64,000 nt of DNA, taken from positions 928,001-992,000 of the forward strand of contig CAVRAL010000004.1 in NCBI GenBank assembly GCA_963719085.1. The letters are read 5' to 3'. The notes below the pieces were generated by a model. It searched no databases and was not told where the DNA came from. It worked only from the letters and a program-made list of their open reading frames with translations. The number at the start of each line of letters is the position of its first letter. The stretch's first letter is position 1. This stretch comes from a candidate division FCPU426 bacterium (lineage in GTDB: Bacteria > Oederibacteriota > Muellerivitia > Muellerivitales > Muellerivitaceae). The position numbers and the translations under genes are program-made. Below are positions 43,033 to 49,284 of the stretch, one piece after another.

Positions 43033-44000
43033 TCATGAACAACCTGCGTTGGTTCCTCATCCTCGTCGGCCTGGCGGCCATGACCCAAGGTTTTGTTTTG
43101 GTGCTGCCGGCCTATTTCAGGGATCTTTTCACGATCGCCTCCATCAACGCGATTCTCGCGGTTTCCCTCAACTTGGTGAACGGGTTGTCGGGGCAATTTT
43201 CTTTGGGCCAAGCTGGTTTCATGGCCGTGGGCGCCTATACCTCGGCCTCAGTTGATTTATTCTGGATCTCGTCTTGGCATGGAAGCGCTTTTGGAAATCA
43301 GGCGGCCTTTGTGGTTTCACTCCTGGCGGCGGCCTTGGCCGGCGGGTTGGTGGGTTACTTGGTGGGGCTTCCCACCCTTCGGCTCAAGGGTGATTACTTG
43401 GCCATCGCGACGTTGGGCGTGGGCGAGATTATCCGGGTGGTCATCCTCAACATCAACGCGGTGGGCGGCGCCCGCGGGCTTTTCGGCATCCCCTCGGCGA
43501 CCAGCGCCTTTATGACGACCCTCATCCTTTTAACCTGCGTGCTGGCCACCCACCGGTTTGTCCATTCCACGCATGGCCGGGCGCTTTTGGCGGTGCGGGA
43601 AAATGAGATCGCGGCCGAGGCCATGGGCGTGGATACGACGGCCTATAAAGTGAAAGCTTTCGTGGCGTCTTCCGCCGTGGCGGCGGTCGCGGGCGGGTTG
43701 TTCGCCCATTACCTTTGCTATATCAATCCCGGTTCCTTTGATTTCATGAAGTCGGTTGAGATCGTCATTATGGTGGTTTTGGGCGGGATGGGTTCGGTGT
43801 CGGGATCGGTGTTGGCGGCGTTTGTTTTAACCCTCCTGCCGGAAGCCCTGCGGCCCCTGCAGGCGGTGACCCATGTGGACCTTCGCATGGTGATTTACGC
43901 GCTTCTTCTTATTCTCATGATGATCCTTCGGCCCCAGGGGATTTTTGGCCGCAAGGAAATTTGGCAAATGATTATGCTCAAACGAAGGAAACGGGAATGA
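43029..44000 (+). CDS. livM: Branched-chain amino acid ABC permease
   Basis: GQFSLGQAGF, LRLKGDYLAIATLG, VVLGGMGS. Confidence 0.93.
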   Translation: MIMNNLRWFLILVGLAAMTQGFVLVLPAYFRDLFTIASINAILAVSLNLVNGLSGQFSLGQAGFMAVGAYTSASVDLFWISSWHGSAFGNQAAFVVSLLAAALAGGLVGYLVGLPTLRLKGDYLAIATLGVGEIIRVVILNINAVGGARGLFGIPSATSAFMTTLILLTCVLATHRFVHSTHGRALLAVRENEIAAEAMGVDTTAYKVKAFVASSAVAAVAGGLFAHYLCYINPGSFDFMKSVEIVIMVVLGGMGSVSGSVLAAFVLTLLPEALRPLQAVTHVDLRMVIYALLLILMMILRPQGIFGRKEIWQMIMLKRRKRE

Positions 44001-44779
44001 GCGCGGCCCCGGTGCTGGACATTCAAAAGGTGACCCTGGCCTTTGGCGGCCTGGTCGCGGTCGACCGCCTTTCGATGGGCTTGAACGAGGGGGAACTGGT
44101 CGGGCTCATCGGGCCTAACGGCGCGGGTAAAACCACGGTTTTCAATATTTTGTCCGGCATCTACCGGCCCCAATCCGGCGACGTCCGGGTTTTTGGCAAG
44201 CCCATCTTGGGACTCAAGCCCCACCAGATCACCCACTTGGGGCTGGTCCGGACCTTCCAAAATATCCGGCTGTTCAAGGAACTGTCGGTCGAGACCAATA
44301 TCCAGGTGGCCTTTCATCACGGGCAGCCTTATAGCGTGGCGGCGGCTTTGCTCCAAACCCGAAGGTACCGTTATTTTGAGAAGGCTTTTGGGGAAGAGAC
44401 GGAGCGGCTGATGGAAACGCTGGAACTGACCCACCGCCGGGGCGCCCTCGCGGGGGCCCTGCCCTATGGGGATCAGAAAAAGCTGGAGATCGCCCGGGCC
44501 CTGGCCACCGGCGCGCGAATCTTGCTTTTGGACGAGCCCGCCGCGGGCATGAATCCCCAGGAATCCCAATGGCTGGTCCAGGCCATCCAGCGCATCCGCA
44601 AAGAATTCAACCTGACCATTCTGGTGATCGAGCACGACATGAAATTCGTGATGGGCCTTTGCGAAAGGATCGTGGCCGTGGACCACGGCGTGAAGATCGC
44701 CGAAGGTTCCCCGGCCCACATCCAAAAAGACACAAAAGTCATCGAAGCGTATTTAGGAAAAAAGAAAAGCAAAGGCTGA
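43997..44779 (+). CDS. livG: Branched-chain amino acid ABC ATPase
   Basis: IGPNGAGKTT, RTFQNIRLF, LPYG, LLDEPAAG; ATGA coupling. Confidence 0.93.
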   Translation: MSAAPVLDIQKVTLAFGGLVAVDRLSMGLNEGELVGLIGPNGAGKTTVFNILSGIYRPQSGDVRVFGKPILGLKPHQITHLGLVRTFQNIRLFKELSVETNIQVAFHHGQPYSVAAALLQTRRYRYFEKAFGEETERLMETLELTHRRGALAGALPYGDQKKLEIARALATGARILLLDEPAAGMNPQESQWLVQAIQRIRKEFNLTILVIEHDMKFVMGLCERIVAVDHGVKIAEGSPAHIQKDTKVIEAYLGKKKSKG

Positions 44780-45265
44780 TTTTCACCACCAAGGCACCAA
44801 GACACCAAGAAAGGCGTTATAAATGGAAAGGGAACCGCTTGATCCATCCTTGGACCCGATTGCACAGCAGATCGTTGACTCGGCTTTCAAGGTTCATTCC
44901 GTCTTGGGACCCGGGTTATTGGAACAAATTTACGAAACATGCATAGCCAAGGAATTGGTCAAGAGGGGGTTGCGGGTAGATCGCCAACTTGAAGTTCCAG
45001 TTTCATATGATGGGGAAAAGTTAGACACGGGGTTTCGGTTGGACTTGCTGGTGGATGAAAAAGTTATTATTGAAGTGAAAGCCGTGGAAAGCCTGGCGTC
45101 TGTCCATCACGCGCAAATTTTGACTTATCTAAAATTATCGGGACGACGATTGGGTTTATTGATTAACTTTAACGTTCCCGTTATTCGACAGGGAATCAAA
45201 CGAGTTGTTCTTTGAGGGGGTCGCTTTGAATTTCTTGGTGCCTTGGTGCCTTGGTGGTGAAAATC
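44778..45265. mobile_element. Inverted-repeat-bounded GxxExxY cassette
   Basis: 35-bp IRs 44778-44812 and 45231-45265, 34/35 match, each with three CACCAAG(G/A) units. Confidence 0.75.
44823..45215 (+). CDS. GxxExxY protein (PD-(D/E)xK nuclease superfamily)
   Basis: LGPGLLEQIY, RLDLLVD..IIEVKAVE, QILTYLK, GLLINF. Confidence 0.92.
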   Translation: MEREPLDPSLDPIAQQIVDSAFKVHSVLGPGLLEQIYETCIAKELVKRGLRVDRQLEVPVSYDGEKLDTGFRLDLLVDEKVIIEVKAVESLASVHHAQILTYLKLSGRRLGLLINFNVPVIRQGIKRVVL

Positions 45266-45278
45266 GAGGTGATCTTTG

Positions 45279-45995
45279 ATGGGTCATTTGTTGGAAATCA
45301 AGGATTTGTCTGTTTTTTATGACGGGGTTCAGGCCTTGAAGGGCGTCAGCCTGAGCGTGCCGCAAGACGGGATTGTATGTTTGATTGGCGGTAACGGCGC
45401 GGGGAAATCGACCGTGCTGCGGACCGTTTCGGGGCTTAAGCGGCCGACCAGCGGAGAAATTTTATTTAAGGGAGAATCGATCAGCGAGGCTGCTCCACAC
45501 AAGTTAGTGGAAAAGGGGTTGGTTCAATGCCCCGAAGGCCGGGGTATTTTCCCGAAGCTGACGGTTGAGGAAAATCTCGATTTGGGCGCTTACGTGCGCA
45601 AGGACCCGGCGGAAATCAAAAAAGACCTGGAAGAGGTTTACGCGCTTTTTGAGAGGCTCAAGGAGCGCCGCAAGCAATCGGCGGGAACCTTGTCGGGCGG
45701 GGAACAACAAATGTTGGCCATTGGCCGGGCGCTCATGGCGCGGCCCCAATTGCTTTTATTGGATGAGCCTTCTTTAGGCTTGGCGCCCCAAATGATCGAG
45801 ACCATTTTTGAGACCATTGTCGACATCAACCGCCGGGGCACCACGATCCTTTTGGTGGAACAAAACGCCCAGATGGCCCTGGAAATTTCCAACAAGGCTT
45901 ATGTGATGGAAACGGGAACGATTCTTTTGCAAGGCAAGGCGTCCGAAGTCGCGCAAAACCCCAAGGTTCAGCAAGCTTATCTCGGTGAATCTTAA
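45279..45995 (+). CDS. livF: Branched-chain amino acid ABC ATPase
   Basis: GGNGAGKST, PEGRGIF, LSGGEQQMLAIGRALM, DEPSLGLAP. Confidence 0.95.
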   Translation: MGHLLEIKDLSVFYDGVQALKGVSLSVPQDGIVCLIGGNGAGKSTVLRTVSGLKRPTSGEILFKGESISEAAPHKLVEKGLVQCPEGRGIFPKLTVEENLDLGAYVRKDPAEIKKDLEEVYALFERLKERRKQSAGTLSGGEQQMLAIGRALMARPQLLLLDEPSLGLAPQMIETIFETIVDINRRGTTILLVEQNAQMALEISNKAYVMETGTILLQGKASEVAQNPKVQQAYLGES

Positions 45996-46057
45996 AAATT
46001 TTCCTTAAAATTAGAGCTCCGCTTGATTGCTTGTTTTGATCTGGGGGGGCCTTTAAG

Positions 46058-47509
46058 ATGACCCGCTCACTATTTGTCCGGGAGAAGGTTTTGAAAAGCG
46101 TTTTTGAAAGCAAGCTGTTTAAATTTCTGTCCTCGGTCAAATTGGCCCTGCCCATGATCCTTATCCTGGCGGCGCTTTTGGCCGCCGGCACGATCGTGGA
46201 ATCGCTTTATTCCACTCCCGTGGCCAAGCGGTTCGTTTACGGTACCTGGTGGTTCGGAGGTTTTCTTTTTCTTTTAGGGCTCAATGTTTTTTGTTCCGCC
46301 CTGTCCCGGCTTCCTTGGAAAAAGCATCACACGGGTTTTGTCATCACCCACTTGGGCATCCTTTGCGTTTTGGCCGGGTCGCTCATCACCCGCCAATCGG
46401 GCACGGACGGTCAAATCGCTTTGGCCGAAGGCGCGCAAGGCTCCATTTTTCAGGAAGATAAGCCGATCCTTTCTTGCCGCATTGATTCGAATCCGGCTCG
46501 AGCGATCCCAGCGGGGTTTATGTTTTTGGAACCGAGGCCCTCGATTCCCTTTACTTACGCCATCCCGCCGGACGGCGTTTTAAAAATCGACCGGGTTTAT
46601 TTGAACGCCCAAAGGGTTGTGGGCGCCCGGGCGGCCGGACCGCAAGACTCAATTGGAGTTGAGGCGGTTCATTTGAAGCTTCAAAGCTCTTTTGTCCAAC
46701 AAGACAACTGGTTGTTTTTGGGCAAGGATGGCTATGACCGGGTAGATTTGGGACCGGCTTCGGTCTATTTCTCGACGCCTGGAAGCTGGAAAAGCCTGTT
46801 TCGTAAAGAAGGAGCTCATTTTCCTTCGAACGCCCTCGTTTTGCTGAAGGCTCCCTCAGGGGGTTTTGAGTTTCAAGTCCGGCGCCGGGATGTTTGGGGT
46901 CCGGTCCAATCGCTCCAGGTTGGAGTTTTAGAATCGACCGGCTGGATGGACATGCAATTCCAAATTACCGAAGCCATGTCTAACGCGATGCCCGATATCA
47001 CCTATGCCCCCAGCCCCTTGGCTTATCAAAAAGACCCCCAGCCCGCGCTTCACTTTGAGGCCCAAGACGGTCCGCGCCGGGCCGAAGGCTGGCTTGGGTT
47101 TGAGGATCAAATCAATTTTTCTTTGAACGGACGGACTTGGGCCCTCACTTACGGGCCCCGGCAGGCGTCCCTGCCCTTTACGCTTTTCTTGCGCAAGTTC
47201 AACTTAGGGCTGGATCCTGGTACGGAAAACCCCGCTTCCTATGCCAGCGATATCGCCACCTCGACGGGCGGTTCCGCTCCAGGTACGCCTTATACCATCA
47301 GCATGAACCATCCTTTGCATAAGGCAGGCTATACCCTCTATCAGGCTAGTTATTTCCCCTTGGGGGATGGAAAATACACCTCAGTTTTTTCCGTAGGACG
47401 GGATCCGGGGCTGCCTTTGAAATATGGCGGGGCCTTGATCATGGTTTTGGGCATTATTTTCATGTTTTGGTTTAAAAATCCGGCCTGGAAAAAGAAGGAC
47501 GTGAAATGA
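46058..47509 (+). CDS. Cytochrome c biogenesis protein ResB/CcsB-like
   Basis: LSSVKLA..GTIVES, THLG, MNHPL...YQASY, DPG before final TM. Confidence 0.8.
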   Translation: MTRSLFVREKVLKSVFESKLFKFLSSVKLALPMILILAALLAAGTIVESLYSTPVAKRFVYGTWWFGGFLFLLGLNVFCSALSRLPWKKHHTGFVITHLGILCVLAGSLITRQSGTDGQIALAEGAQGSIFQEDKPILSCRIDSNPARAIPAGFMFLEPRPSIPFTYAIPPDGVLKIDRVYLNAQRVVGARAAGPQDSIGVEAVHLKLQSSFVQQDNWLFLGKDGYDRVDLGPASVYFSTPGSWKSLFRKEGAHFPSNALVLLKAPSGGFEFQVRRRDVWGPVQSLQVGVLESTGWMDMQFQITEAMSNAMPDITYAPSPLAYQKDPQPALHFEAQDGPRRAEGWLGFEDQINFSLNGRTWALTYGPRQASLPFTLFLRKFNLGLDPGTENPASYASDIATSTGGSAPGTPYTISMNHPLHKAGYTLYQASYFPLGDGKYTSVFSVGRDPGLPLKYGGALIMVLGIIFMFWFKNPAWKKKDVK

Positions 47510-49284
47510 TCAGGCTTCTAGAAGCGGTAAACCAACAAAAACTTCGCACGCGAAGACGCAAAGACGCCAAGGAAACCTTTTCTTTCATAAAGTCAAAAAT
47601 ATTTGACGATTTTTTTCTATTAAGGCCCTTCTTGGCGTCTTGGCGTCTTTGCGTGGGTAGTTTGTTTTGGTTAGTCGTAATTTTGGTTCCGGCTTTTGGC
47701 GCGGAAACGTTCGACTTTTCAACCCTCCAGCTTTTGCCCATCCAGAACGGCGGCCGGGTCAAGCCTCTGGATAGTTTCGCGCGTGAAAGCGCCCGGCAGG
47801 TGACGGGCCATGAAAACTATCAAGGCCTCTCTTCCATGGATTTACTGATGAATTGGATCGCCAAGCCGGATGACTGGAGCGGCCAAAATTTTATCCTGGT
47901 GGAAAACCTTGAGCTCAAAAAAAAGTTGGGGGTGCCGGCCGCCCAAACCGCGGTGTCCCCTGAATTTTTATTGAAGAACAGCGGCTTCCTGGATTTCGTT
48001 AAAGCCGTTCTTCAAAAACAACAGGACAAGGTCGCGTTGAACCCGTTGGAAAAGGAAACCCTGGCCCTCTTTGGCCGTCTGCAAAAGTTTGGGGACATCG
48101 AGTCCGGCGACGCTTTGGCCTTCATCCCCGTGCCCGACTCCCCCAACTGGCTTTCCATGGGCGAACTGCGCCGGGCTTATGACAAGGCCCCGAAAAAGAT
48201 GCCTCCAGTCGCCCAGCTTTTACTTTTTCGTTTCGCCGAGGTGCTGAAGGCTTACGCCGAAAATAACCCCGCTGATTTTACGGCCCAGAGCCTGCAGCTC
48301 GAGGCCATGCTCAAACCGGCGCAAGAAAATCCGCAGGTGAGGCCCGGCCGGTTGGCGTTGGAAGTGACCTATAACCAGTTGAAGCCTTTTCGTTGGGCTT
48401 GGATTTTACATTTGACGGCGGCCCTATTGATCGCGCTCTCAATTCTTTTGAGCCGGGTTTGGCTCTTCCGGATCGGACTTGTCTTTTTTGGAGGCGGAAT
48501 TTTGGTCAGCGCTTTTGGCTTCGCGGCCCGGTGTTTGATCGCGGGCCGCCCGCCGGTTTCCAATATGTACGAATCGCTCATCTGGGTGACTTTCGGAATG
48601 ACGCTTTTCGCGGCTTTGTTCGAGATTCTATTTAAAAACCGCTCTTTTGTTTTGGCCGGCTCCATTCTGGCGGTGGCGGGGTTTGTTTTGGCGGACAACG
48701 TGCCGTCGGTTTTGGACCCTTCCATTCAACCGCTGGAGCCCGTGCTTCGAAGCAATTTCTGGTTGACGATCCATGTGCTCACCATCACGCTCAGCTACGC
48801 GGCGTTTCTTTTGTCCCTCGGCATCGGTCATGTGGGCCTTTGGACGCTTTTTCGACATCCCAAGGATAGACAAAAACTCAAAGACCAAGCCCAGCTGCTT
48901 TACCGGGTGGTGCAGGTGGGGATCGTGCTTTTGGCTTCCGGCACTATTTTGGGAGGGGTTTGGGCCAGCTATTCCTGGGGCAGGTTTTGGGGATGGGACC
49001 CGAAAGAAACCTGGGCCTTGATCGCGCTATTGGGCTACGTGGCGCTGTTACACGGCAAGATGGCCGGTTGGCTTCAAGAGCGGGGATTCATTATGGGTGT
49101 GGTCTGCGCCTTTCTCGGGGTGCTCATGGCCTGGTACGGCGTTAATTTCGTTTTAGGCGTGGGACTGCACAGCTATGGTTTTTCCAAAGGCGGATTGCCT
49201 TATGTGATCTCATTTGTGGCCGCGGAGTTTATCTTAGTGGCGTTGGCGGGGGTTTTATCTTCTCCTCGAAAGGAAGCGCGATGA
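47506..49284 (+). CDS. ccsA: Cytochrome c biogenesis protein CcsA (system II)
   Basis: GRVKPLDS, PVSNMYES, WLTIHV, WASYSWGRFWGWDPKETW (WWD), GLHSYG. Confidence 0.9.
   Translation: MIRLLEAVNQQKLRTRRRKDAKETFSFIKSKIFDDFFLLRPFLASWRLCVGSLFWLVVILVPAFGAETFDFSTLQLLPIQNGGRVKPLDSFARESARQVTGHENYQGLSSMDLLMNWIAKPDDWSGQNFILVENLELKKKLGVPAAQTAVSPEFLLKNSGFLDFVKAVLQKQQDKVALNPLEKETLALFGRLQKFGDIESGDALAFIPVPDSPNWLSMGELRRAYDKAPKKMPPVAQLLLFRFAEVLKAYAENNPADFTAQSLQLEAMLKPAQENPQVRPGRLALEVTYNQLKPFRWAWILHLTAALLIALSILLSRVWLFRIGLVFFGGGILVSAFGFAARCLIAGRPPVSNMYESLIWVTFGMTLFAALFEILFKNRSFVLAGSILAVAGFVLADNVPSVLDPSIQPLEPVLRSNFWLTIHVLTITLSYAAFLLSLGIGHVGLWTLFRHPKDRQKLKDQAQLLYRVVQVGIVLLASGTILGGVWASYSWGRFWGWDPKETWALIALLGYVALLHGKMAGWLQERGFIMGVVCAFLGVLMAWYGVNFVLGVGLHSYGFSKGGLPYVISFVAAEFILVALAGVLSSPRKEAR
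47547..47655. repeat. Gene-less palindromic element with 8-bp periodic arms inside the ccsA 5' end
   Basis: CACGCGAAGACGCAAAGACGCCAAG vs reverse complement of 47631-47655: 23/25 match. Confidence 0.85.

What the first reader, a model, noticed from the sequence alone, without database searches (positions are those of the whole stretch)
44778..45265. GxxExxY nuclease-like gene enclosed by near-perfect periodic inverted repeats and inserted in the liv operon
Seen: left arm GATTTTCACCACCAAGGCACCAAGACACCAAGAAA (44778-44812) and right arm 45231-45265 are reverse complements at 34/35 positions. Each arm contains three 8-bp units CACCAAG(G/A). They tightly bracket one 130-aa gene that looks more AT-rich than its neighbours. 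The left arm starts inside the livG stop codon and the right arm ends directly before the livF SD (GAGGTG), so the operon is not disrupted. I see no target-site duplication and no transposase or integrase. Established: livG and livF are normally adjacent, and GxxExxY proteins belong to the PD-(D/E)xK nuclease fold with no known function. Inference: this is a small autonomous mobile cassette whose nuclease recognises the repeats (analogous to RAYT/REP), or one whose arms pair in the mRNA to loop the gene out.
Basis: partly seen in the sequence, partly recalled or inferred. Interest (0 to 1): 0.85.

Follow-up and report, generated by a model that had tools for sequence, protein, structure and literature searches.

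The report
Nuclease gene inside a word-repeat hairpin
A tiny nuclease gene wrapped in two inverted arrays of an 8-letter word has been inserted between two transporter genes, and it belongs to a very widespread, apparently undescribed partnership between such genes and about a hundred gene-less hairpin repeats scattered through the same genome.

Summary
A 35-nt inverted repeat (34/35 complementary), each arm holding three CACCAAG(G/A) units, brackets a 130-aa GxxExxY (PF13366) gene exactly between livG and livF. It is an insertion: four relatives have livG's stop overlapping livF's start.

It is not a local oddity:
- All 4 GxxExxY genes of this genome sit between periodic inverted repeats.
- 63 of 75 GxxExxY loci from many phyla do too, against 6 of 140 shifted controls.
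- This genome holds 91 paired copies of the same arms, and 85 of them are gene-less hairpins, mostly 2-50 nt after a stop codon.
- Four-helix-bundle ("23S rRNA IVS protein") genes in the phylum are wrapped the same way, but with other words.

Best reading (0.5): a REPIN/RAYT-like or IVS-like selfish gene-plus-hairpin family whose nuclease recognises its own arm words.

This copy is old, not freshly mobile. An orthologous cassette lies at dS about 1 with dN/dS 0.06.

Pairing in RNA gets no support from the G·U versus A·C counts. No RNA data were available.

I found no paper that links GxxExxY genes to such repeats. Earlier agents of this scan reported the same phenomenon in at least 9 other genomes.

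The parts
44778..44812 (.). Left arm of the inverted repeat: GATTTTCAC + three 8-nt units CACCAAGG / CACCAAGA / CACCAAGA + AA. It begins inside the livG stop codon.
44823..45215 (+). 130-aa GxxExxY / PDDEXK_3 gene. It has G31xxE34xxY37 and the PD-(D/E)XK residues D74 and E84-x-K86. GC is 0.43-0.47.
   Evidence: Invariant or nearly invariant columns. AlphaFold model with pLDDT 94.9.
45231..45265 (.). Right arm, the reverse complement of the left arm at 34 of 35 positions.
45266..45271 (+). GAGGTG, a Shine-Dalgarno-like hexamer 7 nt before the livF ATG (45279). Together with TC before it, it is shared with the orthologous cassette L128 and is missing from empty junctions, so it probably came in with the insertion.
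43961..44779 (+). livG-like ABC ATPase (context). Its last codons (…SKG*) differ from the …KKKK* of empty-site relatives.
45279..45995 (+). livF-like ABC ATPase (context).
47530..47672 (.). Second element of the same super-family in the window: a gene-less hairpin. Arms are AACCAACAAAAACTTCGCA + CGCGAAGA CGCAAAGA CGCCAAGG and their complement, with a loop of about 55 nt. It lies between the resB-like and ccsA-like genes.
   Evidence: DNA fold -36.9 kcal/mol, z -7.2. (C4:975549-975654).

Best explanation
The 488-bp unit is one gene-bearing member of a large family of 'gene in a hairpin loop' elements.

Anatomy:
- A small PD-(D/E)XK nuclease gene (GxxExxY) lies between two inverted arrays of a 7-nt word (consensus C-R-C-N-A/G-A-G) repeated every 8-9 nt.
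- The same arms, closed over short, unrelated, AT-rich loops, form about a hundred gene-less hairpin repeats just downstream of stop codons throughout this genome.

How I think it works:
- The nuclease most likely recognises the words of its own arms, as duplex or as an extruded or single-stranded DNA hairpin.
- This protein-repeat interaction keeps the arms conserved and drives gain, loss and spread of the hairpins at the DNA level.
- That makes it a functional analogue of the RAYT/REPIN partnership, built on a different enzyme.

At this locus:
- The element entered the livG/livF junction.
- It replaced the overlapping stop/start and supplied a new stop for livG and a ribosome-binding site for livF.
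- It has since been kept for a long time under strong purifying selection.

Shown: the insertion, the architecture and its generality, the dispersal of gene-less copies, conservation of the catalytic residues, selection on protein and arms, and the absence of a RAYT.
Inferred: protein-arm recognition, and any transposition or homing chemistry.
For: (1) Insertion.
- The same-genus G001 and family relatives G002, G018 and G014 have 13-16 nt where G000 has 522 nt, with ATGA stop/start overlap.

(2) Generality.
- 4 of 4 PF13366 genes in the genome are flanked by periodic inverted repeats, with different words for the divergent paralogue.
- Of 80 loci from many phyla, 75 had both flanks. An inverted repeat scoring >=12 was found in 63 of 75, against 6 of 140 shifted controls.
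- The strict word pair was present in both flanks, inverted, in 46 of 75, against 1 of 140.
- ORF calls of homologues often start with HQDTKTPR-type peptides, which are translations of the arms.

(3) Dispersed partners.
- There are 91 paired arm sets in G000, and 85 are gene-less with loops of 24-103 nt.
- 80 of those 85 do not overlap the stop side of an ORF, and most start 2-50 nt after a stop.
- Only 4 of 85 lie between divergent genes, against 348 of 2524 gene pairs genome-wide.
- The two-word pattern occurs 254 times in G000, against 4 for the reversed control.

(4) Words track the cargo.
- Four-helix-bundle genes are also wrapped (18 of 25, against 0 of 48 controls).
- Their words are different (GACAGTC, GGTTCGCA, GTTACAGG and others), and by eye none of the 25 arms listed shows the CRCNRAG word.

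(5) Sequence is conserved, not only pairing.
- C1, C3 and G7 were fixed by my search pattern. Of the positions it left free, 6 is mostly A (128 of 143), 5 is A 113: G 30, and 2 and 4 vary across phyla.
- Arms of the orthologous cassette L128 stay about 90-100% identical, while dS of the flanking genes is 1.4-1.6.

(6) The protein is functional.
- E34, D74 and K86 are invariant and E84 nearly so in 107 sequences.
- dN/dS is 0.057.
- The model is confident and has a PD-(D/E)XK fold nearest Cas4, restriction enzymes and Hjc.

(7) No RAYT.
- There is no Y1 transposase in the 99%-complete genome.

(8) Co-occurrence in the phylum.
- The word-pair pattern has >=20 hits in 30 of 44 genomes with PF13366 and in 5 of 55 without (my tally).
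- 23 of the 30 belong to one family, so these are not independent.

(9) DNA-level turnover.
- Presence (G000, L128) and absence (G001) of the cassette disagree with the LivG/LivF tree, which gives (G000,(G001,L128)) at 100/99.
- Only the junction-proximal 60 nt are closer between G000 and L128.

(10) Mismatch types.
- There is no G·U over A·C excess in the stems: 43:48 and 78:56.
Against: - Loops of gene-less copies are unrelated. Only 2 of 3403 loop pairs share an extended match. Ordinary copy-paste of a whole element is therefore not what spreads them.
- This cassette is old (dS 0.98 to its orthologue) and under strong purifying selection. That is more like a kept gene than a jumping one.
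- Hairpins occur where no GxxExxY gene was found: G030, 100% complete, has 31 pattern hits and 0 genes. G001, G075 and G045 do too, but they are incomplete.
- 14 of 44 genomes with the gene have few hits of this word pattern. They may use other words, which I did not test.
- The commonest word in G000 (CGCCAAG, 257 units) is not the word of the livG/livF cassette (CACCAAG, 98 units).
- No target-site duplication, no excision or insertion intermediates and no empty-site contigs were seen.
- Fold matches are generic (all Z < 8) and name no substrate.
- The co-occurrence and co-variation could reflect joint inheritance alone.
Confidence: 0.5

Rival explanations
1. IVS-like RNA element. The arms pair in the liv transcript into a 35-bp double-stranded stem that RNase III cuts. 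This would excise a stem-capped GxxExxY mRNA and split the operon RNA, as intervening sequences with an ORF are cut out of 23S rRNA. Under this reading the gene-less hairpins are RNA processing or stability sites.
For: - The anatomy matches the Coxiella IVS. That element is 428-444 nt with a 28-bp terminal stem, one small ORF and GC below the genome, and RNase III cuts it in vitro (PMC4990558, passages read).
- The IVS ORF family PF05635 is wrapped by periodic inverted repeats in this phylum: 18 of 25, against 0 of 48 controls.
- The RNA minimum-free-energy fold closes the terminal stem: -174 kcal/mol, z -4.6.
- Hairpins sit in transcribed positions just after stop codons.
- No sigma-70-like promoter was found in 44500-45500, so the gene is probably read from the operon transcript.
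Against: - There is no clear G·U over A·C preference on the sense strand: 43:48 and 78:56. RNA stems under selection tolerate G·U but not A·C.
- The word sequence itself is conserved across phyla, not only the pairing.
- The element reads the same on both strands.
- This rival does not explain why the words differ by cargo family.
- It is not exclusive of the best explanation.
Confidence: 0.2
2. Host-serving REP-like repeats. The word arrays are binding sites for a host protein (a nucleoid or global regulator), or mRNA-stabilising hairpins kept by the host. The GxxExxY gene is then a passenger, or a domesticated factor that happens to lie in some loops.
For: - Paired inverted arrays of tandem octa-, nona- and heptanucleotide repeats in Geobacter metallireducens were read as sites for unidentified global regulators or IHF/HU (PMC2700814, passages and supplement legends read).
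- The hairpins sit at 3' ends of genes and are depleted between divergent genes.
- The cassette and protein have been retained for a long time under purifying selection.
- Hairpins occur in a complete genome without the gene (G030).
Against: - The tight, phylum-spanning wrapping of one protein family by one word type, and of another family by other words, is not expected for a passenger.
- Content turns over at the same junctions among close relatives.
- Many GxxExxY copies are truncated or carry stop codons, which indicates birth and death.
Confidence: 0.2
3. A one-off local inverted duplication or a chance repeat around an ordinary gene.
For: None beyond the fact that a single locus was reported.
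Against:: the same architecture recurs at all paralogues, at 91 sites in the genome, and in 63 of 75 loci of other phyla.
Confidence: 0.01

Closest known systems
REPIN / RAYT systems (REP doublets forming hairpins and REP-associated tyrosine transposases; Bertels and Rainey 2011, PMC3116915, abstract read)
   Same: - A low-copy gene is flanked by inverted copies of a short repeat.
- The same repeat is dispersed as hairpin-forming doublets in extragenic space, largely at gene ends.
- Distinct repeat groups pair with distinct gene copies.
   Different: - The enzyme is a about 130-aa PD-(D/E)XK nuclease, not an HUH/Y1 transposase; none is present in the genome.
- The arms are arrays of a 7-nt word at 8-9 nt spacing rather than one palindromic REP.
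- The gene lies inside the loop of the hairpin.
- Loops of gene-less copies are unrelated.
- No mobility intermediate was seen.
Intervening sequences (IVS) of 23S rRNA with an ORF (Coxiella IVS, PMC4990558, passages read; Leptospira IVS of Ralph and McClelland 1993, known to me only through citations)
   Same: - The element is about 430-490 nt with a terminal inverted repeat forming a 28-35 bp stem.
- It carries one small ORF of unknown function.
- Its GC is below the host's.
- Its distribution is sporadic.
- The IVS ORF family (PF05635) shows the same periodic-arm wrapping in this phylum.
   Different: - It sits in an mRNA operon, not in rRNA helix 25 or 45.
- The ORF is PF13366, not PF05635.
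- The arms are periodic.
- RNase III processing was not tested here.
- There is no G·U bias.
Paired 'global regulator binding sites' of Geobacter metallireducens (Aklujkar et al. 2009, PMC2700814; passages and supplement legends read, the supplementary alignments themselves not seen)
   Same: - Pairs of sites lie on opposite strands at variable distance.
- Each site consists of 3-5 tandem 7-9-nt repeats.
- Some lie between operon genes (for example proB/proA).
- The class 2 consensus TCTCCGTS is the complement of a CRCNRAG-type word.
   Different: - The sites were interpreted as protein-binding regulatory sites.
- No link to GxxExxY or any enclosed gene was drawn in the passages I read.
MITEs (miniature inverted-repeat transposable elements; from my own knowledge)
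   Same: Short, non-coding, intergenic, multicopy, with terminal inverted repeats.
   Different: - There is no target-site duplication.
- The interiors are not conserved between copies.
- There is no transposase-bearing parent.
- The arms are internally periodic.

Membership tests
GxxExxY / PDDEXK_3 (TIGR04256, PF13366) | Profile score above the curated cut-off | tested here: met
   PF13366 scores 145.8 bits against a cut-off of 22. TIGR04256 scores 147.7 bits against 35.
GxxExxY / PDDEXK_3 (TIGR04256, PF13366) | GxxExxY motif and the PD-(D/E)XK catalytic set (D … E-x-K) | tested here: met
   G31, E34, Y37, D74 and K86 are invariant and E84 is >=90% conserved in 107 sequences. The alpha-alpha-beta-beta-beta-alpha-beta core is modelled at pLDDT 94.9.
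PD-(D/E)XK nuclease fold | Structural likeness to solved members | tested here: met
   VIA-align gives Cas4 SSO0001 Z 7.8 (99 residues aligned, rmsd 3.6), BpuSI Z 7.7, 3ijm Z 7.7 and Hjc 1gef Z 6.6. Nearly all top rows are PD-(D/E)XK enzymes. Foldseek's best E-value is 1.6e-3. All Z values are below 8, so the fold class is supported but no subfamily is.
REPIN/RAYT system | A Y1 (HUH) REP-associated transposase gene | tested here: not met
   PF01797 has 0 matches in the 99%-complete genome. The control search rings in 6 of 14 named genomes.
REPIN/RAYT system | Repeat doublets in inverted orientation forming hairpins, dispersed in extragenic space | tested here: met
   There are 91 paired arm sets, 85 of them gene-less and intergenic. 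Fold z is -7.2 for the copy at 47535-47670.
REPIN/RAYT system | The gene is flanked by its own repeat type | tested here: met
   4 of 4 genes in G000.
23S rRNA intervening sequence | Located in 23S rRNA (helix 25 or 45) | tested here: not met
   The element lies between livG and livF. No paired element of my census lies within the 23S gene at C1:612517-615544.
23S rRNA intervening sequence | Terminal complementary sequences forming a long stem around the element | tested here: met
   The stem is 35 bp with 1 mismatch and is present in the RNA minimum-free-energy fold.
23S rRNA intervening sequence | Excision from the transcript by RNase III | not testable with these tools
   No RNA run is listed.
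MITE | Target-site duplication | tested here: not met
   No direct repeat abuts the arms. No recurrent duplicated flank appears among the 91 copies listed.
MITE | Copies share their internal sequence | tested here: not met
   Only 2 of 3403 loop pairs show an extended match.
Homing endonuclease gene (free-standing) | The nuclease cuts the empty allele and the element is copied in with co-conversion of flanks | tested here: inconclusive
   Cassette presence is discordant with the flank tree. Only the junction-proximal 60 nt are closer between the two cassette bearers. This rests on three sequences and noisy windows, and cleavage cannot be tested here.

The most novel reading that the evidence does not exclude
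GxxExxY proteins are the catalytic engine of a new class of prokaryotic DNA element. Each nuclease subfamily reads its own 7-nt word, arrayed periodically in two inverted arms. It acts on the hairpin or cruciform that they form to seed, homogenise, delete or move the arms. The four-helix-bundle 'IVS proteins' would be a second, unrelated engine using the same architecture. This would assign a role to two of the largest families of tiny unexplained bacterial genes. It would also explain a large share of the word-periodic intergenic hairpins in many phyla, including ORF-bearing rRNA intervening sequences.
Probability: 0.3. Interest if true: 0.88.

Novelty: new variant of a known kind. Interest (0 to 1): 0.72.

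Why it matters
- **An unexplained protein family.** GxxExxY/PDDEXK_3 is a very large family. One word-limited search scored 7963 hits among 8000 candidates. Its function is listed as 'Unknown' in the PD-(D/E)XK survey (PMC3424549, table row read).
- **A testable substrate.** A rule that these genes sit in the loop of a word-periodic inverted repeat, and that the same arms populate intergenic space as hairpins, gives the family a concrete candidate substrate: its own arms.
- **A link to rRNA intervening sequences.** The same rule ties the family to the long-unexplained ORF-bearing intervening sequences of rRNA.
- **Practical consequences for annotation.** It explains a class of repeats that break assemblies. 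It also explains spurious N-terminal extensions and junk ORFs.
- **Possible tools.** If the nucleases are word-specific, they would be a natural library of small sequence-specific DNA- or RNA-binding nucleases.

Tried and rejected
- **Rfam:** nothing relevant at E<=1 over 44000-48500.
- **Solved structures by sequence:** no relative. The best hit has E 0.052 and is unrelated.
- **PADLOC and PHROGs:** only marginal hits, Cas4b at E 0.0067 and phrog_5928 at 0.0041.
- **Sequencing runs:** no RNA holder is listed.
- **Contigs of four DNA runs:**
  - They break at the arms. Their 'joints' across the cassette carry 16-30 other letters and different flanks.
  - So they are other gene-less copies of the arms, not an empty livG/livF site.
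  - No piece spans the stretch.
- **Orientation of the gene relative to its neighbours:**
  - The upstream neighbour has the same strand in 58 of 74 loci, the downstream one in 46 of 69.
  - About 72% of adjacent gene pairs in G000 share a strand, so there is no signal.
- **Fixed-period autocorrelation as a periodicity test:**
  - It was too insensitive because the spacing alternates between 8 and 9 nt: 15 of 63 arms against 11 of 300 control pieces.
  - I relied on the word-pair pattern instead.
- **My recollection that the HEPN survey treats the IVS protein:** wrong. There is no mention in PMC3710099.
- **The 22-nt imperfect direct repeat** (45198-45219 and 45262-45283, 18/22): it is not kept in the orthologue L128, so I treat it as chance.
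- **Two large enclosures** found by self-BLAST (C1:376802-378333 around a dihydroorotase-like gene; C4:61912-63175 around a dehydrogenase-like gene): these are arms of two separate neighbouring hairpins, not cassettes.
- **Complex prediction:** not used.
Full report
**1. The observation**

The inverted repeat is real.
- Its arms are 44778-44812 and 45231-45265, each 35 nt. They are complementary at 34 of 35 positions and lie 418 nt apart.
- Each arm reads GATTTTCAC followed by three 8-nt units CACCAAG(G/A).
- The two-unit word occurs four times exactly in the 64-kb window, all in these arms. One 2-mismatch match lies at 47631-47645. Chance expectation is 0.25, and 0 of 100 shuffles reached five.

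The arms enclose a single 130-aa ORF, 44823-45215 (+).
- It scores 145.8 bits on PF13366 PDDEXK_3 (cut-off 22).
- It scores 147.7 bits on TIGR04256 GxxExxY (cut-off 35).

- They are livG-like (43961-44779) and livF-like ABC ATPases.
- The left arm begins inside livG's TGA.
- GAGGTG follows the right arm directly, 7 nt before the livF ATG at 45279.
- GC falls to 0.43-0.47 in the cassette, against 0.55-0.64 and 0.52-0.56 on either side.

**2. It is an insertion**

The window is G000:C4:928001-992000. I compared the livG/livF junction in 12 related genomes.
- Four have 13-16 nt where G000 has 522 nt, with livG's stop overlapping livF's start (…AAAAAATGACC…). They are G001 (labelled same genus), G002, G018 and G014.
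- G009 has 33 nt.
- The others carry different small inserts:
  - G005 has 49 nt, G008 113 nt and G003 92 nt.
  - G006 has 81 nt, which by eye is a hairpin of AGTTYTAA words.
  - G004 has 216 nt holding another repeat family.
  - G015 has 449 nt with an AT-rich ORF.
- The junction is therefore a hot spot for insertions.

In G000 the last livG codons are …SKG* where the empty sites have …KKKK*. The start of livF also differs. The event replaced about 12 nt, gave livG a new stop codon and gave livF a Shine-Dalgarno-like site.

**3. It is one of a family, in this genome and far beyond**

*The other GxxExxY genes of the genome.*
- G000 has four PF13366 matches, one with an in-frame TGA. All four lie between periodic inverted repeats.
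- Two use CGCAAAG/CGCTAAG words.
- The divergent paralogue (41% identical) uses a 10-nt period, GATGAACGCA.

*Gene-less copies.*
- A self-comparison of the genome found 42 inverted-repeat pairs within 1.5 kb. Most are gene-less hairpins with the same kinds of arm.
- A word-pair census (CRCNAAG, 1-2 nt, CRCNAAG, and its complement downstream) found 91 paired elements.
  - 85 have loops of 24-103 nt, 2 have loops of 121-300 nt and 4 have loops of 301-800 nt.
  - There are also 42 unpaired arm clusters.
  - Only three of the 91 enclose a GxxExxY gene.
  - One encloses a 154-aa ORF without any Pfam, PADLOC or PHROG match.
- Position of the 85 gene-less copies, against my crude ORF map:
  - 80 do not overlap the stop side of an ORF.
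  - Most begin 2-50 nt after a stop codon.
  - 64 lie between co-directional ORFs, 17 between convergent ORFs and 4 between divergent ORFs. Genome-wide the gene pairs number 1826, 350 and 348.
- Their loops are AT-rich (GC 0.31) and unrelated to each other. Only 2 of 3403 loop pairs share an extended match.
- One such hairpin lies in the window at 47530-47672.

*Other phyla.*
- A profile scan of one genome per species returned 80 loci. They come from Verrucomicrobia, Planctomycetes, Acidobacteria, Chloroflexi, Bacteroidetes, Ignavibacteria, Alpha-, Delta- and Zetaproteobacteria, Nitrospiraceae and Nostoc.
- Five were dropped for short flanks.
- Of the other 75, 63 have an inverted repeat of score >=12 bracketing the gene, against 6 of 140 windows shifted by 800 nt in the same loci.
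- 46 of 75 carry the strict word pair in both flanks in inverted orientation, against 1 of 140. In 40 the CRCNRAG strand is 5'; in 6 the arrangement is reversed.
- Many ORF calls of homologues begin with HQDTKTPR or HQDAKTPRE, which are translations of CACCAAGACACCAAG-type arms.

*A second cargo family.*
- The 'four-helix-bundle / 23S rRNA IVS protein' family (PF05635) is present in 71 of 99 genomes sampled from the phylum, though not in G000.
- It is wrapped in the same way. Of 30 loci, 25 had both flanks, and 18 of those 25 scored >=12 against 0 of 48 controls.
- Its words are different: GACAGTC, GGTTCGCA, GTTACAGG, ACAGAGAA, GTTTATAA.
- So the architecture is shared while the word goes with the cargo.

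**4. What the protein is**

- In 107 aligned sequences G31, E34, Y37, D74 and K86 are invariant and E84 is nearly so. For this alignment I picked 26 of the 120 listed hits, added two paralogues and 78 of the 80 loci, and left out L071 and L077 for in-frame stops.
- AlphaFold gives a confident model, with pLDDT 94.9 and pTM 0.87.
- Its nearest solved folds are PD-(D/E)XK enzymes:
  - Cas4 SSO0001 at Z 7.8;
  - the BpuSI nuclease domain at 7.7;
  - a Spirosoma restriction-endonuclease-like protein at 7.7;
  - Hjc at 6.6.
- All are below Z 8, so only the fold class is established.
- No relative has a solved structure by sequence.

**5. DNA or RNA?**

The element reads 5'-word array … complement array-3' on both strands, so either strand can form the hairpin.

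If the stem were kept for an RNA, mismatches on the sense strand should be G·U rather than A·C. The counts do not show this.
- In the 63 gene-bearing loci with a scored repeat they are 43 G·U, 48 A·C, 85 other and 1540 Watson-Crick pairs.
- In 64 gene-less hairpins between co-directional ORFs they are 78, 56, 123 and 1667.

That is at most a slight, non-significant lean.

Together with conservation of the word itself across phyla, this favours recognition of a sequence, most simply as DNA. It does not exclude an RNA role.
- The RNA fold does close the terminal stem, with z -4.6.
- No promoter-like site precedes the gene.
- No RNA run was available.

**6. Age and movement of this copy**

A metagenome contig (L128) carries the same cassette at the same junction with the same boundaries. 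Its protein is 90% identical.
- Between G000 and L128 the GxxExxY gene has dS 0.98 and dN/dS 0.057.
- The livG 3' part has dS 1.42 and dN/dS 0.077.
- livF has dS 1.63 and dN/dS 0.12.
- The arms remain about 90-100% identical, and L128's right arm is the exact complement of G000's left arm. The short spacer between the gene and the right arm has diverged.

Protein and arms are therefore both under constraint, and the copy is old.

A LivG(C-terminal)+LivF tree of 13 rows places the empty G001 as sister of the cassette-bearing L128 (100/99), with G000 outside them (98/98). In 60-nt windows, L128 is closer to G000 only next to the junction and closer to G001 in most of livF.
- Either G001 regained an ancestral-type empty junction, or the filled allele moved between lineages.
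- Both are DNA-level replacements at one site, and I cannot tell which happened.
- The evidence rests on three sequences and two genes.

Contigs of four DNA runs show only other copies of the arms, with no empty site.

**7. Association across the phylum**

- PF13366 is found in 44 of 99 sampled genomes.
- The word-pair pattern has 254 hits in G000, against 4 for the reversed control.
- By my tally of the two tables, the pattern has >=20 hits in 30 of 44 genomes with the gene and in 5 of 55 without. The five are G001, G075, G045, G030 and G025; in G025 all hits are on one strand.
- 23 of the 30 belong to one family, so this is not an independent test.
- G030 is 100% complete and has 31 hits and no gene, so hairpins can outlive or do without the gene.
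- The many truncated or stop-bearing PF13366 matches fit a birth-and-death process.
- G000 has no Y1/RAYT transposase.

**8. Comparison with what is known**

*REPIN/RAYT (PMC3116915, abstract read).* The logic is closest to this system. The enzyme, the periodic arms, the gene-in-loop layout and the unrelated loops all differ.

*ORF-bearing 23S rRNA intervening sequences (PMC4990558, passages read).* The anatomy is closest to these. That paper itself records that the origin of IVSs and the role of their ORF are unknown. It also records the old idea of a mobile element whose ORF aids mobility.

*Geobacter metallireducens (PMC2700814, passages and legends read; supplementary alignments not seen).* Paired inverted arrays of tandem 7-9-nt repeats were catalogued there as putative global-regulator sites.

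*Literature searches.*
- 'GxxExxY' gave 3 papers and 'PDDEXK_3/PF13366' gave 2. In the passages or abstracts I saw, none links the family to inverted repeats.
- I also searched the IVS-protein names and 'octanucleotide repeats'+Geobacter. No listed title or abstract connects GxxExxY genes with such repeats.
- The library lacks most subscription journals.

*Earlier notes of this scan.* They report the same phenomenon in at least nine other genomes with the same reading. I treat them as leads. My own tests of the main claims are.

**9. Verdict**

- This is a real, widespread and, as far as I could find, undescribed gene-plus-hairpin partnership.
- Its mechanism is inferred, not shown.
- This particular copy is an old, well-kept resident rather than a fresh arrival.

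Noticed in passing
window 47530-47672: A gene-less hairpin with CGCGAAG/CGCAAAG/CGCCAAG words lies between the resB-like gene (46058-47509) and the ccsA-like gene. The ATG-started ORF at 47506 reads through it in frame, but a GTG just after the right arm gives a signal-peptide-like start. G001 has no hairpin here. G008 and G010 have hairpins of other words (CACGAAG; CGCAGAG/CGCGAAG) at the same junction.
   Followed up: partly
G000:C4:1219844-1220557 (outside the window): Arms of the AACCAACAAAAAC…CTCACGCAAAGACGCTAAGACGC type enclose a 154-aa ORF (GC 0.47) with no Pfam, PADLOC or PHROG match. It may be a third cargo family.
   Followed up: partly
L097-L126 (relatives in the phylum): Four-helix-bundle (23S_rRNA_IVP) genes are bracketed by periodic inverted repeats with their own words: 18 of 25, against 0 of 48 controls. 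This may tie ORF-bearing rRNA intervening sequences to the same element class.
   Followed up: partly
L009 (G015) and L010 (G004), livG/livF junction: Other inserts lie at the same junction. G015 has a 449-nt AT-rich segment with an ORF and no obvious inverted repeat. G004 has 216 nt containing a GTCATTGCGAGGAG…CCTCGCAACGAC-type repeat that I recall as common in other bacteria.
   Followed up: no
G000:C4:693687-694144 (L004): One of the four GxxExxY genes carries an in-frame TGA inside otherwise intact periodic arms, so it is a decaying copy.
   Followed up: no
G000:C5:32652-34061: A 644-nt inverted repeat, 99.4% identical, with 124 nt between the arms, is AT-rich and lies on the low-GC contig C5 (GC 0.49). 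It is unrelated to the word hairpins.
   Followed up: no
G000, several sites, e.g. C1:328050, C1:365969, C4:218863, C4:405769: A different repeat is fused to a CGCCAAGT word: GACAGTGCCGCCCCCATTAA…GGAGGGGCGGC, itself a GC-rich hairpin.
   Followed up: no
G048:C3:889230-889774: In a phylum relative the word pair CGCCAAGCCGCAAAG recurs seven times on one strand at 88-90-nt spacing, next to a PF13366 gene at 889964-890314. This is a tandem array of arms rather than a single hairpin.
   Followed up: no
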